Of a DNA stretch of 64,000 nt, positions 3,919 to 64,000 are shown piece after piece. Origin of the DNA: a virus; the IMG/VR virus record IMGVR_UViG_3300034683_000142, positions 1 through 64,000 of that record; one strand, given 5' to 3'. A model generated the notes under the pieces. The model was not told where the DNA came from and did no database searches. It was given only the letters and a program-made list of their open reading frames with translations. Each line of letters begins with the position of its first letter. Position 1 is the first letter of the stretch. The position numbers were made by a program, and so were the translations under genes.

Positions 3919-4479
3919 ATGAAAATGGATAAAGTAAAATTTTATAATTGTATTAGAAGTACAATATTTGGAAAATTATTACAAAATCAAGTTGATAGTA
4001 TAGAAGCTATACTTAATGAATGTAATAATATGGATGAAAGAAAAATAGCTTATATACTAGGAACTGTTTACCATGAGACTGCTAGAACTATGTTACCCAT
4101 AGAAGAGTATGGTAGAGGTAAAGGTCATTTATATGGTAAAAAAATTAAACACAATGGAGAGATATATTCTTATCCAGATAAATTATATTATGGTAGGGGT
4201 TTTGTACAGCTAACTTGATATGAAAATTATGAAAAATTTGGAGAGTTGTTAAATATACCTTTATTAGAAAACCCAGAACTAGCTTTAGATACAAATGTAT
4301 CTGCAAAAATACTTGTAATAGGTATGGAAAAAGGGTTATTTACTGGAAAAAAGTTAGATAACTACTTTAATGAGGAAAAAACAGATTGAAGAAATGCTAG
4401 AAGAATAATAAATGGACTAGACAAAGCAGATACTATAGCAAACTATGCTAAAAAATTTTATAATTGTTTAAGTGAATAA
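3919..4479 (+). CDS. Endolysin, glycoside hydrolase family 19-like, 186 aa
   Basis: AYILGTVYHET, YYGRGFVQLT-W(TGA)-YENY, LLENPELAL and D-W(TGA)-RNARRIING are GH19 phage lysin motifs. Ends at TAA 4477-4479. Confidence 0.9.
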
Positions 4480-54900: not shown

Positions 54901-55032
54901 TCAATAGATATTATTAAAGCTTTTTATGGAGAAATTTCTAAATTACCTAAAGAAGTTAAAGAAAAAATAAAGAATTCTAATTTTAGAAATTCTTTAAATA
55001 AATTAATAAAAAATATTAATCAATGTAAATAA
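45946..55032 (+). CDS. Giant cargo protein, 3028 aa, containing an SF1 helicase-like P-loop domain
   Basis: Nine track ORFs in one frame joined by TGA. GSAGSGKT, LIIDE, GDQNQ, VQGSEVD and LYTFASRSR at about 51260-52390. Confidence 0.8.
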
Positions 55033-58000
55033 TGCATACTTGTAGTAATAAAATTCAGAAACGCATTATCGAGGCTATGGATAACTACCTCCTTGATGCT
55101 GATAATCCTACATTTTTAGATTTAGAAGAGTATATAGCAGAAGAACTTGGAAGAGATACTTTTAGTTTTAAGGAAGTATCCGATAATGCTCCAATAATTA
55201 CAAAATTAAAGGACATATTTGGTGAAGATATAGACTTGTCATCTGACGAGTCTATATCTCACTATTCTAATATATTAAAGGATGTAAAATCGTACTCTAT
55301 AGATGATTTGTTTCATGGTATTCCAGCTGCTAAAGTAGAGTTTGATAGCTATGTTAAAAGAGTTGTAATAGGAGAAGGTGTATTAGGTAAAAACAATGAT
55401 GATACCTATGCAGTAAATGATGAACAGTTAAATAATAATTTTACTAGAATAAAAAGTGATTTATTTAACAAAATTCAAGATTTTCTAATCAGTAAAAATT
55501 TATATCATGGGGATATTCTGCCTTTATATAATGAAGAAGGAGTAGCAAATTATGATAGTTATGTAAATATAATGACTATTATTAATGATTATTTTTTCAA
55601 TAATCCAGAAATACCTATTATAAAATCATATACTAATAAGAAAATACCTAATCTATCAGTAAGTGATGCTAATAAGCCTATATTAGAAGCATACTATAAC
55701 ATGATTTTACTTTCTAATTTTGATACTGTTATAAGTACAAAATTTAAGAATTTCTTTAAAGTAAATTTAAATAAATTTAATCTATTAGATTCTGGGTTTG
55801 GAGAAAATTTGAAATACTATTTAAAATTTGATCCAATAACTACTCCATATTGAAGAAACGATAATCACCAATCTGATAGCTCTGAAGAAAGAACTGATGA
55901 ATTTACAAGAAATATTGTAAGTATCATACCTTTGTATAATAAGTATGGTGTTAAAACTGACGAGTATCTTGAGGTAAATGATCTTTATTTAATAGCTGCT
56001 AAAGTATCTGAATTTGAATTACGAGAAGGCAATAGGCTAAAGAATCAAAATACCAGCTTTGACTATTTTAATAGTAATCCTATAGAAAAACTCAAATGGT
56101 ACATAGAAAATATTAACAAAGCTATAAGTAGGGAATCAGATTCAATACAAGAATTAAATAGATATTTTGATTCTATATATGATAAGATATTATCTATTGA
56201 TAAATTTATAAATGAATCTGAATATAATATAGCTAAAAAAGAGGTTAATTCTGGAAATTCTATATTAGGTTATATAGCACAAGTAATTAATAACAATTAT
56301 GGAACTTCATATGCATCTTATGATATTAAAGGAAAATATAATGTACAAGAAATGTATAACCAAGATTTTAACTCAACTAGGGTTCAAAGTACTGTATTTT
56401 CTACGTTAAAGATGCACTATGCAGATAAGGATTTTTATAATATATCGGATGACTTTGAAGAACTTTTTCCTAATAGAATAGATACAGTTGATAACATATT
56501 ACATGCTGTAGAATCTGGTGAAATAGACTACAATAAATTAAATAAATATATAACTTCTAAAACAGGTATAGCAATGTCTAAACAATCTTTAATTAATACT
56601 ATTAAAGATGTTTCAGTACATAATAAAAATGGCAATCCTGTTAACGGTATAGAATTTAAAAGTATGCTTAAAGAATTAATGTTAAATCTTAAAGCTGATT
56701 TTAGTTCTGATACATTTAGAGAAGCTGTAGCATTATCTAACGATAAATCTGTTAGGTTAGATTCAACTGTTGGTAAGTATTTATCAAATACAGTAAAAAA
56801 TCCATTATTTATAGCTCTAAAAAATTCTTTCATAGATAAGTTTACTGTAAAAGTAGTAATGAATGCTAATACAGCAAATGGTGATACAATACCTTCTTTT
56901 AAAATAGGAAATCTTACATACAAGGACACACAGTTATTTGACTTAAGAAGACAATATGAAAGAGAAAATCCAAATGGATTTTTTAAAAGTTTGTTATTGA
57001 AAGACAGTCCAGCTATTCTTGGAACTTTGACTAAACTAGAAGTAGTTAGAAAAGGAAGAGCCAAAGACTATTCTAAACTTACTCCAGAAGAACAATTTAT
57101 ATCCGATTTTAATTATGACTTTTTAAAGAGTTTAAATTATTTTGGAAGATTTTCTGTAATATTAGGAAACTATTCTGATAAACCAACAATACTAGCCAAA
57201 ATTATAAATGGAGATTTTAAGTTAACAGAAAATGGCAAGCCAATTGTCAGGGAGTCTATTGATACTATATTAGAAACTGTAAGAGTACAGTCTTTTTCTT
57301 ATTATTCTGATTTATTAGATAGTATATTTTTAGATTATAAAAATATATTTGATATATTAGGTATTAAAAATAATATAGATTTAAATTGGAAAAATAATAA
57401 TAAATTAGAAGACAATGTAAAAAACATAAATGATATTCTTAAAGTTAATAGTATATCAAGTATAAATGATAGGCTCGCTGATATATCCCCAGATAAGAGA
57501 CCAAATTTGTTAATGCAAGAACTTCACTATTCTAAATATTCTAATGGAACTTTTTTAAATAATCTTATCTTAGATAATTACCTAATATTTTCAGATAGTT
57601 CTAAAGATGGGTTGTTTTATAATATGTTTGTTCCTAGAACTGAAAGTTCTTTCATAACTAAATTTTCTAAGTTTTCTAATCCAGATTCTTTACATATAGA
57701 CAAGAATGAAATTGATAGTTATTTAAATTTATTAAGTATAAATAGAGAAGACTTTAAGTCAAAGAACGGTAGTAAATCTACTTATGAATATGATTCTTTA
57801 CTTATAAATAATAAATTAAATCCATTTGTAAAGAAATGGCTTTGATTAAATTCTTTATTTAGAAATGAGTATTTATATATAGGAGTAAAAGGAGAGTATA
57901 TGCATCCTCATAAGAGCAATATACTTTTTAGATTTGGAAGTGATGATAAAAACTATTGGGATAATTACTTTTTAGAAATGTCTAAAAGGATGATTCCATT

Positions 58001-61000
58001 AGGTAAAAGAAATGTTACTTATACTGCTTCTATAGAATCACCTATTAGAAATTCTAAAAGAGGTGTTCCAGATAAGATTAATGTTGCTGCAATAGAGGAT
58101 TATAAATCTAATATATATACAACTTCTGGGTATAAAAAAATTGGAGCAGATTCACATGATGGCTCTTCTTTCTTAGATTATGTATATAGTAAAATGGTTG
58201 ATGAATCTTTTCCTGGAAAAGGTTATTCTGGAACTAAAAAACAGTTTGCTACCTTTGTAACCCCATATGGTGTCACAATTAAAAAAGATGCAGAATCAGT
58301 TATAACTAATGCTAAAATACTAGCATCTGGAGATTCTGACATTAATCTTCTTCATATTAAATATAAGATGCTAAACATTCCTATAGGAGATGCTGTAAGA
58401 TTAACATATAATTCTGGGAGTTTAGCTAATTATTATATAATAAGAAATGGTGTTAGACTTAGAGTAAATTCTATAAAGATAAACAATGATGATGGTGGTA
58501 ATTATATAAGTATAAACTATTCTAAAGGAATAGAAAAGGATGGCCAAATTATATATACTGGCTCTATAGACACTAAAGAATATATAGATACTTTATATGA
58601 TATATGAAATCATATAGGTGCACAATACTCAATAGATGTAAATGGAAACTTTAACGAAGAATCTAATGAAAGGTTATATGATATAGTTATAAATACTAAC
58701 AATGGTATTTTAAAAACTAAAATGATTCATATACTTTCTAATGTATCTGCATTAAAAGCAGGAGCTGCTGGAGTTAATAGTGTTTCTAGATGAAAGAGTT
58801 GGGATTCGTTATTATATTCTACTTATAATAGTAGATTTATGGGGCCTCAGTTGGATGCTTCTCATGAAGCTGATCAATCTGAAATTAGGGAAGTATCTCA
58901 AGTTATTTCAGCTTTATCACAAGGAGGTTTTACAGCTGATATAGCTGATGAAGCCTATAGAGATATAGCTAATGTCATAGCTAAGTCTATGGATAAGTAC
59001 TTAAAACATATGAAAGTAGATAATGTTGATAAGAATGCATTATATAATATGTTAAGTGCAAAATTCATTAGAAGCATACAAAAATCTGATAGAGAGGAAA
59101 TAACTAAAGACCTTATAAATATTTTATTAGATAATGGAGTACCTGTACCATTTAGTAATCAAAATTTTTATAATTTATATGTAAGAGAAATAATAACAAC
59201 TCTAAATAATGACTTTATATCTAGAAATTATCCTGGAATAGGTGGAGTGTTGATACCATCTCATGGTATGATACAACTCTACGATGTATTAGATGGAAAC
59301 AAATGGATAACTGTTACTCAAGAAGATATTGTTAAAGAAGCTTTATCAGTTCTTAGAAATAATGAAAAAGTACCTGTAAACAGTATTAAATTATATGACA
59401 CAGTAGTAATAGGTGGAATAGAGTTATCAATTGATACAGAGCAAAGATTAAGATGGTTGAAAGATAACTATAGTGATAGACTTGTTGAAAAAGTACCTGA
59501 ATGAAATAATGAAGATTTTGTAAACGAATATATAGTTAATAAATTAAAAGATATTTTAGTAAATTCTGAAGACATAGAATTAGGTGATACTATAAGAATA
59601 GATGGAGAAGCTATTACATTAGATACTCCAGCTAAATATTATTCTTTTAAAGAAAGTGGGCCATCTACTGTATATAGAGTTTTATCTAAACCTAGAGACT
59701 TAAAACCAACTTTACATACTTTTAAAGAAATAGTATATGATCCACAAACTAATTCAGAAATTACTATACACAAAAATACTTTTGATATTCAACCTTTAGC
59801 TTTATTATATAAATATACAGAAAATATATTAAATGATAAGGACAAAATTATTATCAATAATATAAAAAATTATATTGGCAATGAGAATATAGTTAAGTTT
59901 TTAAGAGCTTGGTATCAGAGAGATCTTCAATTATTAGATCACGGTTTAATAATGAAAGAACTTAAAGAAACAGATAATGTATCAGAATATTTTAAGAATG
60001 ACAATGTATTAGAGGATATATTACAAGATGTATTATCTTATTATCAAAATAATGCAAATAAAATAGTTGATTTAAGATTTAAGCCTGCTGAAATAATGAT
60101 GCCAGACATCTATAAATCTACTTTTAATAGAGACGATAATGATAGTTTGTATAGGATAAAAAAAGAGGGGCCTAAATACTTTAAAAATAAATTTGATATA
60201 TTATATGACTATGATAATACAGAAGCTGATATAAAAATTGTAACTAGTGATGTTAGTAATCCTGTTTATATAAGACTTGTAACTAAATTAACTGGTGTAA
60301 ATAATGTAAATATAAAAAGAAATCCAGATGTTGATTATGAGTTATACTCTAGATATAATGAGGTTGGTGATAGGTTATACGATTTAGTAGATTATAAAAA
60401 CATTAGAGCATTCTCTGAGGGAGGAAAAGAAATAATAGAAATTAAAGTTGGATATACTGATAAGAATGGTAAAAATATTCTTAAGAGAAATGCATTTGCT
60501 AATGTAGAAAGACTGATAAAATCTTTTACAGATATAAGAGCTATTGTCCCACTAAATAATGGAAATATTAGTTCAGCTTATTATAGTAATATAGTAAGTA
60601 AAGAGGAAATGTTAGATATATCTGAACAAGAAATAAAAAATGTAAAAAATGATGATTCTTTAGATCCTGTAAATGTATATTCTAATATATCAAACATATT
60701 TTCTAAATATAACGATATTAATCTAGTTGGAATAGATACCTCAAATAAAAATTGATTTTCTAGTAATAAAGAATTAATTTTAAATAGATTAGCTAATTCT
60801 ATATATGCTTCTTGGGAAAAATCTCATGATGTAGTAGCTTCTCGTATTCCTTCTCAATCTATGCAATCATTTATGCCTATGCGTAATGTTGGATATATAA
60901 AAGGTAATACAAATGATGTATATGTGAGTGTACACCAGATATTTCTACAAGGTTCTGACTTTGATGTGGATAAGGCTTATATATTAGGACATGGATTCTT

Positions 61001-64000
61001 GAATAATGGTAGAACTGATTTATGAACTAATCTAAGTTCATATTCTACAGTAGATCAGTTAAATGCATTAATGCAACTTCCTATGCCTAGTGGAAAGATT
61101 ATAAATATTATTGAAGGTAATGGAGACCCAAATTTAGAAATTCTATATAATCAAATAGCAAATAGTTTAGCTAATGTATCATATGAATATGAATTACCAA
61201 CTGAAACTATTCTATTATTTAATAAATTTATAAGAGCTTTACCAACTACTAATCTAGATGTATTACCTATAAATATAAGTCAAGAAAATCCTAATTTATC
61301 TTTTAATGAGTTTGAGAGATTGTTAAATAAGCATACTACATATACTGATTATAGTACAAGTCCATATAGTGTTAAGAATTCTATTGTTCAAAAAATAAAT
61401 AAAGTTATTTCTTCTGCTAGTAATCAAATTAATGCTAATACACCTGTTGATGTACAACCATTACATGATGCTATCAGAAATGTTCAAAATAAAAGAAATG
61501 GACAAACTCAACCTAAAAACGTAAGTAGTTCTAATAATATAAATAGTTCTAATAATAATGAAATAGGTAATCCTAATATAGTTTTTCGCACGTCTTCATT
61601 CAGTGATTATAAAGACAGAACTTATGAAAATGCTTCAGCAGATGCAACTATAGCATTAGCTACAGATTTTAATAGTTTTGGTGAATTAGCTACTAAAGTA
61701 GCTGTTTTAGGACAAAATAAAAAATATATACCTATTGATGCTAACAACTTAAATGTAACGCCAGAAAGAGTTGATAAGATAGTTAATGAACTAAATAACC
61801 TATCTAATCCTACTCCTATTTTAAATTATTCTAAATTAGAAGAAAAGTTACAACTATCTACAAAAGAAAAACCAATTATTGTTTATGTTGATGGTAGTGA
61901 TATTAAAGGAACTGGTGCTATTGGATTTGGAGTAAATACCACTTATGATAATAAAGAGTATTCTATATCTGGCTCATTTGATACAAATAACTTATCAAGT
62001 TTAGAAAAAGATTTAGGTATTAAATTAAAAAATAAGCCTTCCAATGCTGTAATGGAGTTTTATGGATCTTTAGTAGCATTGAGAAATACTCCAGAAAATG
62101 AATATATTGTTATTAGACAAGATTTAGAAGGTGTACAGCTTTGAATTTTATCAGGATTAATGGAGAGATTTTCTAATCAAAATCTAGATACAAAAAGCAA
62201 GTATGATTCTTGGTATAAATCTTTAACTGAAGAACAAAAGCAAGATTACTATAATAAAGTACAAAATATAATAGGTCTAGATAAAAATTTAATTTCTAAA
62301 TTTGATTGGGACGGTAGAAAAGGATTTTATGCTGAAGATATGACTGTTAGAGCAATTCAGCAAAAGATAATAGATATTATATTAAACAGAAAAGGAAAAG
62401 TAAAATATCAATGAGTTAGGGGACATTCTGGTGAAGCTGGTAATGAAAAAGTAGATGCTATTGCAAAAGAAAGACGTAACTATAATACATATAAAGATTT
62501 ATTTAATAAATCCGCAGGTAAAGAAAAAAATACTGAAAATAATTTTAATTCTGATTTATCTAGTTTAGAGAAGAATGCTAAAAAAGAGATATCTCTTAAT
62601 ATAGCAGGCAATGGTATTTATACTATGAAAGGTAAATATACTCAAGACCAAGTTGATGAATTTACCTATAAATTATTAAAAGCTATTATTGAGTCTCCTA
62701 ATCTTAAATTAAAAATTAATTCTATTAGATCTGGTGGTCAAACTGGATTTGATGAAGCTGGTGCTAAAGCTGGTATAAAATTAGGAATACCTGTTACTGT
62801 CTTAGCTCCCAAAGGTTGGAAATTTAGAGATATAAATGGAAAAGATATTTCTGATGAAAAGAAGTTTAAAGAAAGGTTTAATAATGTATTAAACAAAAAT
62901 AAACAGATAAGTAATCCTATTCTAAGTAAAGAACAAAAAGAAACAGTAAAGACTCCAACTATACAACATATTGCTGATCATGATAGTGACTTAGGAAAAG
63001 ATAAAAAAGGGTATGAGCAATTTAGAATATATGAAAGGATTGATAATCAGGATGGATATAGTTTAGCTTATGGTAAACCTATTAAAATTAAAGGATTTGA
63101 AGAATTTGATTTTTATTTAGCAGAAAATCAAGAAGGAAGACCATGAACTACATATGAAAAAAGAACAGGTAGAATTACAAGTCGTGGAAATACTCAAAAA
63201 GAAGCAATTGAGAGTCTTCAAACTGGATTAAACTCTGTTGGATTGGATAATATGAGGAATATTATATCAAGTCAAAGGTCAGTTTATGAAGAAAATCAGG
63301 TAGAAGAATTTAATACAGAAGAAGTAGAAAATATATCAGATGAAGATAATTTAAATTCTCATGATATGTTATCTTATTATCAACAACAGTATGATGCTTC
63401 CGTAGGTAAAGATAACACTGGTATAGCTGCTAATGGAGTAAAAGGATTGTTTGCTTTAACTGCTTATTATAATAATTTCTTTTTAAATACTTGGGGAAAT
63501 AAAGATCTTACTGATACAGAACTTAGACGTAGTAGTAAACTATTTAAGAAGGATATTAAATTCAAGGATGATTTTGGAAATGATGTAAGGATATTTATAG
63601 GAAGCTTGCCTGATGTACTTATAAATAGAAAACAAGAAGAATCTTTAAAAAGAGTTTTAGGAGATAATTATAGTAGATTATTTCCAAATAGTGCTGTATA
63701 TATGAGTGCATTTGTATCAGCTGCAACAGACAATGCAAAAGAGCTTATTATGGCAAAGGTTAATGCTTCACCAAAATTAGCAGGAATGCACGCTTATATG
63801 ATAGCATTAGGATTTACTCCAGATCAAATTACTGAGTTTATGACTTCTAAAACAGCTTCAAAAATTGTTTTGAGATCTACAGATAATATATATGATGATG
63901 GTATTAGTAATTCTGTTACTAGGGTTATAAAGGAACTAAAAGCTGATCCTACCGTAAATAAAAGTCAGTTATTAGCGTTTGAACAATTATACCTAGATTC
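55032..64000 (+). CDS. Virion-packaged RNA polymerase (two-barrel, crAss type), more than 2989 aa, 3' truncated, with inserted SLOG and RNase H domains
   Basis: Single frame open to the window end. SRIPSQSMQSFM then catalytic GSDFDVDK (60951-60974), later GIAANGVK and SAATDNAKEL. Confidence 0.88.

What the first reader, a model, noticed from the sequence alone, without database searches (positions are those of the whole stretch)
61500..63350. Nested insert in the virion RNAP: RNase H inside a permuted SLOG domain inside the polymerase
Seen: about 180 aa after the DFDVD catalytic loop, an insert of roughly 600 aa flanked by low-complexity linkers separates NQINANTPVD from QYDASVGKDNTGIAANG. 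It holds YKDRTYENASADATIAL...GELATK (about 61605-61800), then an RNase HI-like domain with all four acidic residues (YVDGS, NAVME, RQDLEG, WVRGHSGEAGNEKVDAIA; about 61875-62470), then LNIAGN...IRSGGQTGFDEAG...APKGW (about 62590-62850). Known: the outer motifs match the MoCo-carrier/YpsA-like SLOG family, where SGGQTG normally comes first, so the order here is permuted. Inference: the injected RNAP carries its own R-loop-resolving nuclease and a nucleotide-binding or processing module, possibly for anti-defence.
Basis: partly seen in the sequence, partly recalled or inferred. Interest (0 to 1): 0.75.

Follow-up and report, generated by a model that had tools for sequence, protein, structure and literature searches.

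The report
RNase H–SLOG cassette in phage polymerase
A crAss-like phage has spliced a removable two-enzyme block into the giant RNA polymerase that such phages inject with their DNA: an RNA/DNA-hybrid nuclease sitting inside a nucleotide-binding domain, probably a first-minute helper or counter-defence kit.

Summary

- **The gene.** ORF 55032-65510 (3,492 codons) is a crAss-like virion RNA polymerase homolog. DFDVD lies at 60957-60971, and a profile matches the catalytic barrel of phi14:2 gp66.
- **The insert.** About 170 aa after the catalytic loop, most of 62 orthologs have a ~30-aa linker. This phage has ~625 extra residues: a 467-aa cassette (61500-62900) plus a ~130-aa domain of unknown fold.
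- **The cassette.** It is a YpsA-clade SLOG domain whose halves (61575-61826, 62583-62885) are split by an RNase HI domain (61869-62471). All five catalytic residues are present.
- **The permuted order.** It is not special to this protein. It is the native order of a large family (phrog_10774; 105 proteins with both halves, up to ~60/80% identical), a second circular permutation relative to PF12694/3IMK. The RNase H sits in that family's insertion hot-spot loop, and models put the halves together.
- **Population evidence.** Metagenome contigs show cassette-bearing and cassette-free forms side by side, so the cassette is real and dispensable.
- **Recurrence.** RNase H recurs in 20 other polymerase-like giants, and lies beside SLOG in four other arrangements.

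Function remains inferred. This scan has already reported swappable cassettes on crAss-type polymerases in other genomes. New here are the nesting, the RNase H theme and the polymorphism.

The parts
55032..64000 (+). Giant virion RNA polymerase homolog. It runs on to 65510 beyond the window (3,492 aa) and has 10 in-frame TGA=Trp codons inside the window.
   Evidence: It is the last of a run of giant + strand genes downstream of the major head protein gene, the same position as g066 in phi14:2.
60840..60974 (+). Catalytic double-psi barrel signature: R-I-P...S-x-Q-S-F-x-P, then GSDFDVDK. The three Asp lie at 60957-60971.
   Evidence: Invariant in 11 orthologs. hhalign to gp66 residues 1314-1375, including its DFDID: probability 85.5%, E 5.6e-6.
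61479..61499 (+). Left border: a 7-aa repeat (N-V-Q-N-K-R-N) that recurs at the right border.
   Evidence: The cassette-free relative P0123 reads straight across this point.
61500..62900 (+). Exchangeable 467-aa cassette (aa 2157-2623): N/S-rich linker, SLOG C-terminal piece, RNase H, linker, SLOG N-terminal piece.
   Evidence: Absent from P0123 and from a co-occurring contig in run X2. Present in contigs of four studies.
61575..61826 (+). SLOG piece 1 (aa 2182-2265). It equals family HMM positions 5-88, PF12694 positions 49-113 and 3IMK residues ~52-125.
   Evidence: pLDDT 90-98.
61869..62471 (+). RNase HI domain (aa 2280-2480) with D2287, E2342, D2364, H2465 and D2475. It carries a ~40-aa clade-specific expansion between the third Asp and the His.
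   Evidence: - Pfam: E 1.9e-8.
- Alignment to E. coli RNase HI.
- Foldseek: E 1.3e-5.
- VIA: Z 9-10.7.
- Catalytic residues invariant in 76/76 relatives.
62583..62885 (+). SLOG piece 2 (aa 2518-2618): strand 1 with its Gly-rich loop, helix 1, then the SGGQTG strand-loop-helix and the strand ending PKGW. It equals family HMM positions ~82-183.
   Evidence: pLDDT 96-98.
62883..62903 (+). Right border repeat (N-V-L-N-K-N-K).
62949..63350 (+). Domain of ~130 aa of unknown fold (aa ~2640-2773). It is present in the cassette-free relative too, but absent from all 62 fetched orthologs.
   Evidence: No Pfam, PHROG or PDB match.
63351..63473 (+). Polymerase resumes with a conserved G-K...helix element. 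By its spacing from the catalytic loop it is probably the bridge helix.
   Evidence: Conserved in 12 orthologs. In gp66 the bridge helix is at 1529-1559 and DFDID at 1361. This is inference.
63705..63743 (+). Conserved S-A-F...D-N-A-K motif that aligns with the start of the gp66 trigger loop.
   Evidence: hhalign: E 1.6e-3, probability only 16%. gp66 trigger loop is at 1598-1636.

Best explanation
**What it is.** The window ends in the virion RNA polymerase gene of a distant crAss-like phage that reads TGA as Trp. A loop follows the catalytic barrel, just before the element that probably forms the bridge helix. In that loop this lineage has taken up accessory modules in steps.
1. A ~130-aa domain of unknown fold.
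2. A 467-aa cassette made of a YpsA-clade SLOG domain.
3. An RNase HI domain placed in that SLOG domain's own permissive loop. This is the loop that joins the ancestral C- and N-termini of the fold, just before strand 1 and its ligand-binding Gly-rich loop.

**What is shown.** Both enzymes look intact. The two SLOG pieces are predicted to close into one Rossmann-like domain with the RNase H hanging off it.

**What is inferred.** The polymerase is packaged and ejected with the DNA, so the cassette reaches the host cell at time zero.
- The RNase H most likely cuts the RNA strand of RNA:DNA hybrids at or near the incoming genome. These may be R-loops left by a polymerase that prefers single-stranded or melted templates, or hybrids made by host RNA-guided defences.
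- The SLOG domain most likely binds or hydrolyses an NAD/ADP-ribose-type nucleotide.
- The block is an optional, exchangeable payload, not part of the transcription mechanism.
For: **Polymerase identity**
- The DFDxD context is invariant in 11 orthologs.
- Profile match to the gp66 catalytic barrel: probability 85.5%, E 5.6e-6.
- Same gene order as phi14:2.
- Orthologs of 3,091-3,462 aa use standard, TGA or TAG codes, as described for crAss-like phages (PMC7886860).

**The insert is lineage-specific**
- In about 33 of 62 orthologous loci the flanking motifs are only 31-34 codons apart.
- None of the 62 has SLOG, RNase H or the third domain.

**Domain identities**
-.
- The five RNase H catalytic residues are invariant in 76/76 relatives.
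- Every near-invariant SLOG family residue is kept.

**The halves form one domain**
- 86 of 105 family members have them contiguous.
- AF2 pLDDT is 90-98 for both halves.
- 3IMK superposes across the insertion: Z 8.0, rmsd 2.4 A, 102 residues, model range 1-370.
- Two-chain test: ipSAE 0.79 against a best control of 0.00; partner pLDDT at least 83; runs agree in at least 90% of contacts. The mark was reached by 58 of 80 solved complexes and 2 of 110 mismatched pairs. The alignment was my own. The pass may reflect likeness to the solved single-chain 3IMK.

**Hot spot**
- 18 of 19 other insert-bearing members break at HMM positions 80-89, as here.

**Real and optional**
- An identical contig spans both borders in a second sample.
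- A cassette-free form co-occurs there at depth 42.7 against 25.3.
- Contigs from three other studies carry SLOG piece 1 plus RNase H joined to the polymerase.
- P0123 is the cassette-free protein.

**A specialised role**
- Three complete relatives (178-182 kb) have a separate canonical RNase H gene.

**Recurrence**
- 39 of 123 RNase H relatives are proteins of at least 1,000 aa. Twenty of them carry the gp66-type R-I/V-P...GSDFD[IV]D context.
- RNase H lies next to SLOG in four other orders.
- The same SLOG family sits at the N-terminus of the Kehishuvirus polymerase and at the C-terminus of the cr10_1 giant protein.

**Literature**
- gp66 is packaged, transcribes early genes and works on single-stranded or denatured DNA (bioRxiv 10.1101/2020.03.07.982082).
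- Viral YpsA-clade SLOG domains are predicted ADP-ribose-derivative processors or sensors (PMC9503650).
Against: - No activity, ligand or packaging was measured.
- The fold search of the modelled catalytic region did not recover any RNA polymerase, so polymerase identity rests on sequence profile, motif and synteny.
- The mapping to the bridge helix rests on spacing and a weak profile match (probability 16%).
- An RNase H acting on the polymerase's own hybrids would also destroy transcripts.
- Cassette-free phages coexist at higher depth, so any benefit is conditional.
- The record is only about 53% complete.
Confidence: 0.6

Rival explanations
1. Pure counter-defence payload, unrelated to the phage's own transcription. 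The RNase H destroys guide or crRNA paired with incoming phage DNA, or the RNA:DNA products of defence reverse transcriptases and retrons. The SLOG domain degrades or soaks up NAD-derived immune signals.
For: - The cassette is optional and varies between co-occurring strains, as expected for arms-race genes.
- The SLOG family is fused to NADAR, DUF4326, ART-type and AlkB-like domains.
- A published prediction gives viral SLOG domains a role against ADP-ribose signals (PMC9503650).
- The domains sit at different places in different polymerases, so exact geometry relative to the active site seems unimportant.
Against: - No match to any PADLOC defence model that would point to a target.
- R-loops inside Cas effectors are largely protein-shielded (general knowledge).
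- Nothing was tested.
Confidence: 0.25
2. Ligand-gated nuclease. The SLOG domain senses a nucleotide and switches the inserted RNase H on or off through the shared loop next to its ligand-binding strand-1 loop.
For: - Domain-in-domain topology, with the insertion directly before strand 1.
- RNase H and SLOG are adjacent in five different architectures.
- Phage SLOG fusions to nucleases and helicases were proposed to be sensor-activated (PMC9503650).
Against: - The same loop accepts unrelated domains in other members: NADAR-like ones, and several with no Pfam match. It may simply be permissive.
- In four of the five architectures the two domains are only neighbours, not nested.
Confidence: 0.15
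3. Replication-primer processing. Transcripts made by the injected polymerase are trimmed by the tethered RNase H to prime phage DNA synthesis, as in ColE1 or mitochondria.
For: - A polymerase and an RNase H are in one chain.
- An analogous idea was raised for jumbo phages that lack primases (PMC7824862).
Against: - crAss-like phages conserve a DnaG-type primase (PMC7886860).
- Relatives have a separate RNase H.
- Cassette-free strains thrive.
Confidence: 0.07
4. Neutral or selfish passenger: a domain block that spreads by illegitimate recombination and gives the phage nothing.
For: - Short repeats at both borders.
- Presence/absence polymorphism.
Against: - All catalytic and family-invariant residues are kept.
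- The frame is open over 467 codons.
- Variants from other studies differ at only 33 of about 1,765 bases (table 8), and most of the differences listed are transitions.
- The same two families were acquired repeatedly and independently by polymerases.
Confidence: 0.08
5. Artefact: an assembly chimera, or separate genes wrongly read as one because TGA was read through.
For: Under table 11 the region is split into pieces.
Against: - Contigs from several studies bridge the borders.
- The table-11 fragment that joins polymerase, SLOG piece 1 and RNase H is on three contigs.
- TGA=W holds over the whole window and falls on a conserved Trp.
- There is no TAA or TAG in 3,492 codons.
Confidence: 0.02

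Closest known systems
Virion RNA polymerase gp66 of Cellulophaga phage phi14:2 (crAss-like; PDB 6VR4, from my own knowledge; the preprint read gives the structure)
   Same: A giant single-chain protein at the end of the virion gene block. It has the same catalytic barrel signature with DFDxD, confirmed by a profile match.
   Different: - 3,492 aa against 2,180 aa.
- No RNase H or SLOG is reported in gp66.
- Here a ~625-aa block follows the catalytic barrel.
- Similarity outside the barrel is barely detectable.
Pfam PF12694 cpYpsA ('putative molybdenum carrier'), structure 3IMK
   Same: Same SLOG fold and motifs: Z 8.0, rmsd 2.4 A. The sequence matches in two pieces.
   Different: The chain order differs. 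The segment that opens 3IMK (SGGQTG...PKG) closes the domain here. So this is a second circular permutation, with the cut after the PKGW strand.
phrog_10774 and the metagenomic family behind it (fusions to NADAR, deoxyribonucleotidase, AlkB-like, DUF7831)
   Same: Same permuted order, up to about 60% (first piece) and 80% (second piece) identity, and the same loop used for inserted domains.
   Different: None of the members examined has an RNase H in the loop. Here the whole domain is itself inside a polymerase.
E. coli-type RNase HI (PF00075)
   Same: Same fold, and the D10/E48/D70/H124/D134 equivalents are present.
   Different: - About 40 extra residues lie between the third Asp and the His, shared only with relatives from giant proteins.
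- The Pfam score is weak, 35 bits.
- It is embedded, not free-standing.
Polyvalent proteins of phages and conjugative elements (Iyer et al. 2017, PMC5512222), and SLOG sensor-effector fusions in phages (Iyer et al. 2022, PMC9503650)
   Same: Many enzymatic modules in one protein that enters the host with the DNA, and cassette-like exchange of modules.
   Different: Neither paper mentions crAss-type polymerases, RNase H partners, or this permutation.
Polymerases of cultured Kehishuvirus phages (PhiCrAssBcn1) and the cr10_1 giant protein
   Same: The same SLOG family is fused to a gp66-type polymerase.
   Different: There the SLOG is contiguous and terminal (aa 86-258 of 2,608; about 4241-4424 of 4,460), and no RNase H was detected.

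Membership tests
crAss-like virion RNA polymerase (gp66 family) | DFDxD metal-binding motif inside a conserved beta-prime-like barrel segment | tested here: met
   DFDVD at aa 1976-1980. Its context is invariant in 11 orthologs. hhalign to gp66 1314-1375: probability 85.5%, E 5.6e-6.
crAss-like virion RNA polymerase (gp66 family) | Two double-psi barrels, bridge helix and trigger loop seen as a fold | tested here: inconclusive
   The AF2 model of aa 1450-2140 (pLDDT 73.9) gave no polymerase match in Foldseek or VIA. The catalytic loop itself is modelled at pLDDT below 50. The trigger-loop match is weak.
crAss-like virion RNA polymerase (gp66 family) | Giant gene at the end of the virion module of a crAss-like genome | tested here: met
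   Gene order against phi14:2. The major head protein is distantly similar to Crassvirales references.
crAss-like virion RNA polymerase (gp66 family) | Packaged in the virion and ejected; transcribes early genes | not testable with these tools
   Known only for gp66.
RNase HI (PF00075) | Profile match above the curated cut-off | tested here: met
   35.0 bits against a cut-off of 25.8, E 1.9e-8.
RNase HI (PF00075) | Catalytic D-E-D-D plus His | tested here: met
   D2287, E2342, D2364, H2465 and D2475 align to D10, E48, D70, H124 and D134. They are invariant in 76/76 relatives.
RNase HI (PF00075) | RNase H fold | tested here: met
   Foldseek: E 1.3e-5, probability 1.0. VIA: Z 9.2-10.7, rmsd 3.1-3.9 A over 120-142 residues.
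RNase HI (PF00075) | Cleaves RNA in RNA:DNA hybrids | not testable with these tools
   Needs an assay.
cpYpsA SLOG (PF12694) | Profile match above the curated cut-off | tested here: inconclusive
   21.9 bits on the whole protein and 26.3 on a 767-aa piece, against a cut-off of 26.2. The score is split because the order differs. Close homologs carry PF12694.
cpYpsA SLOG (PF12694) | Chain order of the model: SGGQTG segment first, strand 1 last | tested here: not met
   Profile positions 49-113 precede positions 1-32. The same holds against 3IMK.
cpYpsA SLOG (PF12694) | SLOG Rossmann-like fold | tested here: met
   3IMK: Z 8.0, rmsd 2.4 A, 102 residues spanning both pieces.
phrog_10774-type permuted SLOG family | Both pieces in this order, with the family's near-invariant residues | tested here: met
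   E 1.8e-22; profile positions 5-59 and 78-164. All near-invariant columns are kept. Family HMM positions 5-88 and ~82-183.
Polyvalent proteins | Several unrelated enzymatic domains in one protein delivered with the DNA, with domains varying between relatives | tested here: met
   Domain content. Variation. Delivery itself is inferred from gp66.

The most novel reading that the evidence does not exclude
The permuted SLOG domain is a natural domain-insertion platform. A nucleotide signal bound at its strand-1 loop would gate whatever enzyme is inserted in the adjoining loop. Here that makes the injected polymerase carry a ligand-switched RNase H, which acts on RNA:DNA hybrids only when the host (or the phage) produces that signal.
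Probability: 0.15. Interest if true: 0.8.

Novelty: new variant of a known kind. Interest (0 to 1): 0.55.

Why it matters
- crAss-like phages are among the most abundant viruses known, and about 1,600 residues of their injected polymerase have no assigned function.
- This locus shows that a loop next to the catalytic core is used as a slot for exchangeable enzymes.
- RNase H and one SLOG family have been recruited to these polymerases again and again.
- Strains with and without the cassette coexist in one sample, which amounts to a natural knock-out.
- The same SLOG family sits in the polymerase of cultured Kehishuvirus phages, so its role can be tested at the bench.
- It also documents a second circular permutation of the YpsA fold, with a loop that tolerates whole inserted domains. 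That is of interest for protein engineering.

Tried and rejected
- **PDB by sequence.** The whole protein and a profile of the catalytic region found nothing useful.
- **Fold searches of the catalytic-region model.** Foldseek and VIA found no polymerase.
- **RNase H relatives.** The word-indexed protein search found only the window's own fragment. The search for related loci found none in IMG/VR.
- **Catalytic-region HMM against RNase H-bearing giants.** It hit none. Their polymerase nature rests on the motif context.
- **Third domain.** No Pfam, PHROG, NCBIfam or PDB match.
- **Defence models.** No PADLOC match for the insert or for a contiguous SLOG domain.
- **Expression.** No RNA holder was listed among public runs.
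- **MAFFT.** Mixing small RNase H proteins with SLOG proteins misaligned them, so they were left out of the folding alignment.
- **Intein or homing element.** Rejected: Pfam finds only RNase_H and cpYpsA in the insert.
- **Assembly chimera and separate-gene readings.** Rejected.
- **Literature.** Searches linking crAss polymerases with RNase H or SLOG found nothing.
Full report
**Reading frame and host gene**

Under table 11 the region 55.9-64 kb is a string of same-strand ORFs. With TGA read as Trp they fuse into one frame from 55032 to the window's end. In the 98,884-nt contig the frame runs to 65510, giving 3,492 aa with no TAA or TAG. The whole window behaves the same way. One of the TGA codons, W2461, falls on a Trp shared by 64 of 76 RNase H relatives.

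**It is a crAss-type virion RNA polymerase homolog**

- Sixty-two IMG/VR loci encode orthologs at about 30-52% identity.
- The 12 orthologs whose frames I traced are single frames, most of them 3,091-3,462 aa, and read in the standard code, with TGA reassigned or with TAG reassigned. Yutin et al. describe exactly this pattern for crAss-like phages (PMC7886860).
- An 11-sequence alignment (A1) shows an invariant R-I-P...S-x-Q-S-F-x-P...G-S-D-x-D-x-D block.
- A profile of A1 aligns with residues 1314-1375 of phi14:2 gp66, including its catalytic DFDID (probability 85.5%, E 5.6e-6).
- gp66 is the experimentally shown packaged polymerase of a crAss-like phage.
- Gene order also agrees: head protein, a run of giant genes, then the polymerase last.
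- Structure-based confirmation failed. The AF2 model of aa 1450-2140 (pLDDT 73.9) has a poorly modelled catalytic loop and matched no polymerase.

**Where the insert sits and what relatives have there**

- In about 33 of the 62 loci, the motif before the insert and the motif after it are only 31-34 codons apart.
- In L002 and L003 there are about 100-112 residues between them.
- In the closest ortholog, L001, there are about 30 residues.
- None of the 62 has the SLOG, RNase H or third domain within 10 kb.
- In gp66 the bridge helix starts about 165 residues after DFDID, and the trigger loop about 235 residues after.
- Here the insert starts about 170 residues after DFDVD. The polymerase resumes with a conserved G-K...helix element (A3).
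- About 105 residues later there is an S-A-F...D-N-A-K motif that aligns weakly with the start of the gp66 trigger loop (E 1.6e-3, probability 16%).

So the slot lies just upstream of the probable bridge helix. This placement is inference.

**The insert is composite**

P0123, a protein fragment from another assembly, is nearly identical to the polymerase up to aa ~2148. It then continues, after a short linker, directly into the third domain, with no SLOG and no RNase H.

Comparing the two forms puts the cassette at aa 2157-2623 (nt 61500-62900). It is bounded by a 7-aa repeat, N-V-Q-N-K-R-N on the left and N-V-L-N-K-N-K on the right.

Public metagenome contigs confirm this:
- In a second sample of the probable source study, one contig spans 61394-63344 without a difference.
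- Another contig in that sample jumps from 61474 to 63056 with 159 other letters between. This is the cassette-free form. Its depth is 42.7, against 25.3 for the cassette-bearing contig.
- Contigs from wastewater, bioreactor and sludge studies run from the catalytic region through SLOG piece 1 and the RNase H. They then carry about 400 extra bases before SLOG piece 2.
- Loose ends after the SLOG domain match a further 225-aa domain, seen in P0058 and in the giant protein of L063.

The slot is therefore a hypervariable payload site, and the arrangement is not an assembly artefact.

**The SLOG domain**

- Pfam PF12694 matches the later piece with profile positions 1-32 and the earlier piece with positions 49-113.
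- phrog_10774 matches both pieces in the order found here, with the RNase H between its positions 59 and 78.
- A database search found 184 relatives, with best local matches up to about 80% identical. In blastp the first piece reaches about 60% identity and the second about 80%.
- Of the 105 relatives in which both pieces were located, 86 have them contiguous. The other 19 have 45-478 extra residues between them.
- In 18 of those 19 the break is at family-HMM positions 80-89, the same loop as here.
- Against the solved cpYpsA structure 3IMK, residues 3-41 align with the end of this family's domain, and residues 52-136 with its beginning.

The family is thus a second circular permutation of the YpsA fold, cut after the strand that ends PKGW. 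The hot-spot loop joins the last helix to strand 1. It is contiguous in 3IMK too. From my own knowledge of YpsA topology, it is where the ancestral C- and N-termini were fused.

Fusion partners in the family (NADAR, deoxyribonucleotidase, AlkB-like, DUF4326, DUF7831) place it in the ADP-ribose/nucleotide-processing network described by Iyer et al. (PMC9503650).

**The RNase H**

- Pfam RNase_H scores above its cut-off.
- The alignment to E. coli RNase HI pairs D2287, E2342, D2364, H2465 and D2475 with D10, E48, D70, H124 and D134.
- A full HMMER search of 1.84 billion representatives gave 124 relatives. All five residues are invariant in the 75 that could be aligned over the full domain.
- This protein and its eight closest relatives share about 40 extra residues between the third Asp and the His.
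- Thirty-nine of the 123 relatives are proteins of at least 1,000 aa. Twenty of them have a DFDxD motif inside the gp66-type context R-I/V-P...G-S-D-F-D-I/V-D-K.

So RNase H is a recurrent passenger of crAss-type polymerases, placed before or after the catalytic site. Three complete relatives of this phage (178-182 kb) have a separate, canonical 137-148-aa RNase H gene elsewhere. This argues that the tethered copy has a specialised job. The present record is only about 53% complete, and within it the polymerase holds the only RNase H and the only SLOG.

**Do the halves fold together?**

- AF2 on aa 2185-2640 with a 44-row alignment gave pLDDT 90-98 for both SLOG pieces and about 50-90 for the RNase H.
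- 3IMK superposes on model residues 1-370, across the insertion, with Z 8.0 and rmsd 2.4 A over 102 residues. RNase H structures match residues 93-297 with Z up to 10.7. Foldseek agrees for RNase HI.
- Given as two chains, the pieces scored ipSAE 0.79 (0.81, 0.79, 0.76) against 0.00 for the best of three controls. Partner pLDDT was at least 83, and the runs agreed in at least 90% of contacts.
- In the tool's calibration this mark was reached by 58 of 80 solved complexes and 2 of 110 mismatched pairs. Those counts hold only roughly, because my own alignment was used.
- The strand at aa ~2203-2209 pairs with strand 1 at aa ~2520-2524.
- The pass may reflect likeness to the solved single-chain 3IMK.

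**RNase H and SLOG as a pair**

Four other proteins among the RNase H relatives, three of them giants, hold the two domains side by side:
- P0125: RNase H, then this family's contiguous SLOG.
- P0186: the reverse order.
- P0177 and P0220: RNase H beside a SLOG in the PF12694 order.

Nesting was seen only in this phage lineage.

The same SLOG family, without RNase H, sits at aa 86-258 of the 2,608-aa 'putative RNA polymerase' of cultured Bacteroides phage PhiCrAssBcn1 (Kehishuvirus). It also sits near the C-terminus of the 4,460-aa cr10_1 protein. Both proteins carry the catalytic signature.

**Mechanism**

Shown:
- domain identities;
- intact catalytic and family residues;
- one-domain models for the SLOG;
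- optional presence of the cassette;
- recurrence of both domains on these polymerases.

Inferred: the polymerase is ejected with the DNA, as gp66 is, so the cassette acts in the first minutes.
- The RNase H removes the RNA strand of hybrids at the incoming genome. gp66 prefers single-stranded or denatured templates, which favours persistent hybrids.
- The SLOG domain binds or cleaves an NAD/ADP-ribose-type nucleotide (PMC9503650).

Whether the two are coupled, and whether the target hybrids are the phage's own or the host's, is open.

**Novelty**

I found no paper that links crAss-type polymerases with RNase H or SLOG. Earlier notes of this scan report swappable enzyme cassettes, including cpYpsA-type SLOG, on crAss-type polymerases in other genomes. 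The general theme is therefore not new to the scan.

New here are:
- the RNase H nested in the SLOG hot-spot loop;
- the recognition of the second permutation as a family trait;
- the RNase H recurrence;
- the co-occurring cassette-plus and cassette-minus alleles.

Noticed in passing
L001:11342-12118: The closest fetched ortholog has no insert at this slot. About 60 aa further on it carries a ~220-aa zincin-like block (H-E-L-M-H). The block ends in a Q-Q-K...Y-S-E-Y...T-G-K-x-D-I-E-G-F motif, which also closes the extra 225-aa domain of P0058 and L063. This may be a shared joint used in cassette exchange.
   Followed up: partly
L075:5793-13619 (Bacteroides phage PhiCrAssBcn1): The annotated 'putative RNA polymerase' of this cultured Kehishuvirus phage has a contiguous copy of the same permuted SLOG family at aa 86-258 (E 1e-46). 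This is a bench-testable case.
   Followed up: partly
L072, L073, L074 (records of L002, L004, L047): Complete 178-182-kb relatives each have a standalone canonical RNase H gene (137-148 aa, 74-104 bits), far from the polymerase.
   Followed up: partly
window 62564-62578: Contigs from three wastewater, bioreactor and sludge studies replace these 13 bases with about 400 other bases. That is a further ~130-aa module between the RNase H and SLOG piece 2. Its sequence was not retrievable.
   Followed up: no
window 62949-63350: The ~130-aa third domain has no match in Pfam, PHROGs or the PDB. Short stretches of it (41% identity over 46-49 aa) recur in two other RNase H-bearing giants: about 70 aa after the RNase H in P0126, and about 400 aa before it in P0170.
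   Followed up: partly
window 1-64000 and the rest of the contig: Every long gene of the window needs TGA=Trp, yet ARAGORN finds no tRNA in the window or in the 98.9-kb record. CheckV rates the record about 53% complete.
   Followed up: partly
window 61300-63500: The stretch is held by subsurface/soil, wastewater, bioreactor, sludge and digester metagenomes of about ten studies. So this crAss-like lineage is environmental rather than gut-associated.
   Followed up: partly
L063:2-11149: A standard-code giant protein of at least 3,715 aa ends in NADAR-like, SLOG and the 225-aa extra domain. It shows the block from which the polymerase cassette could have been drawn.
   Followed up: partly
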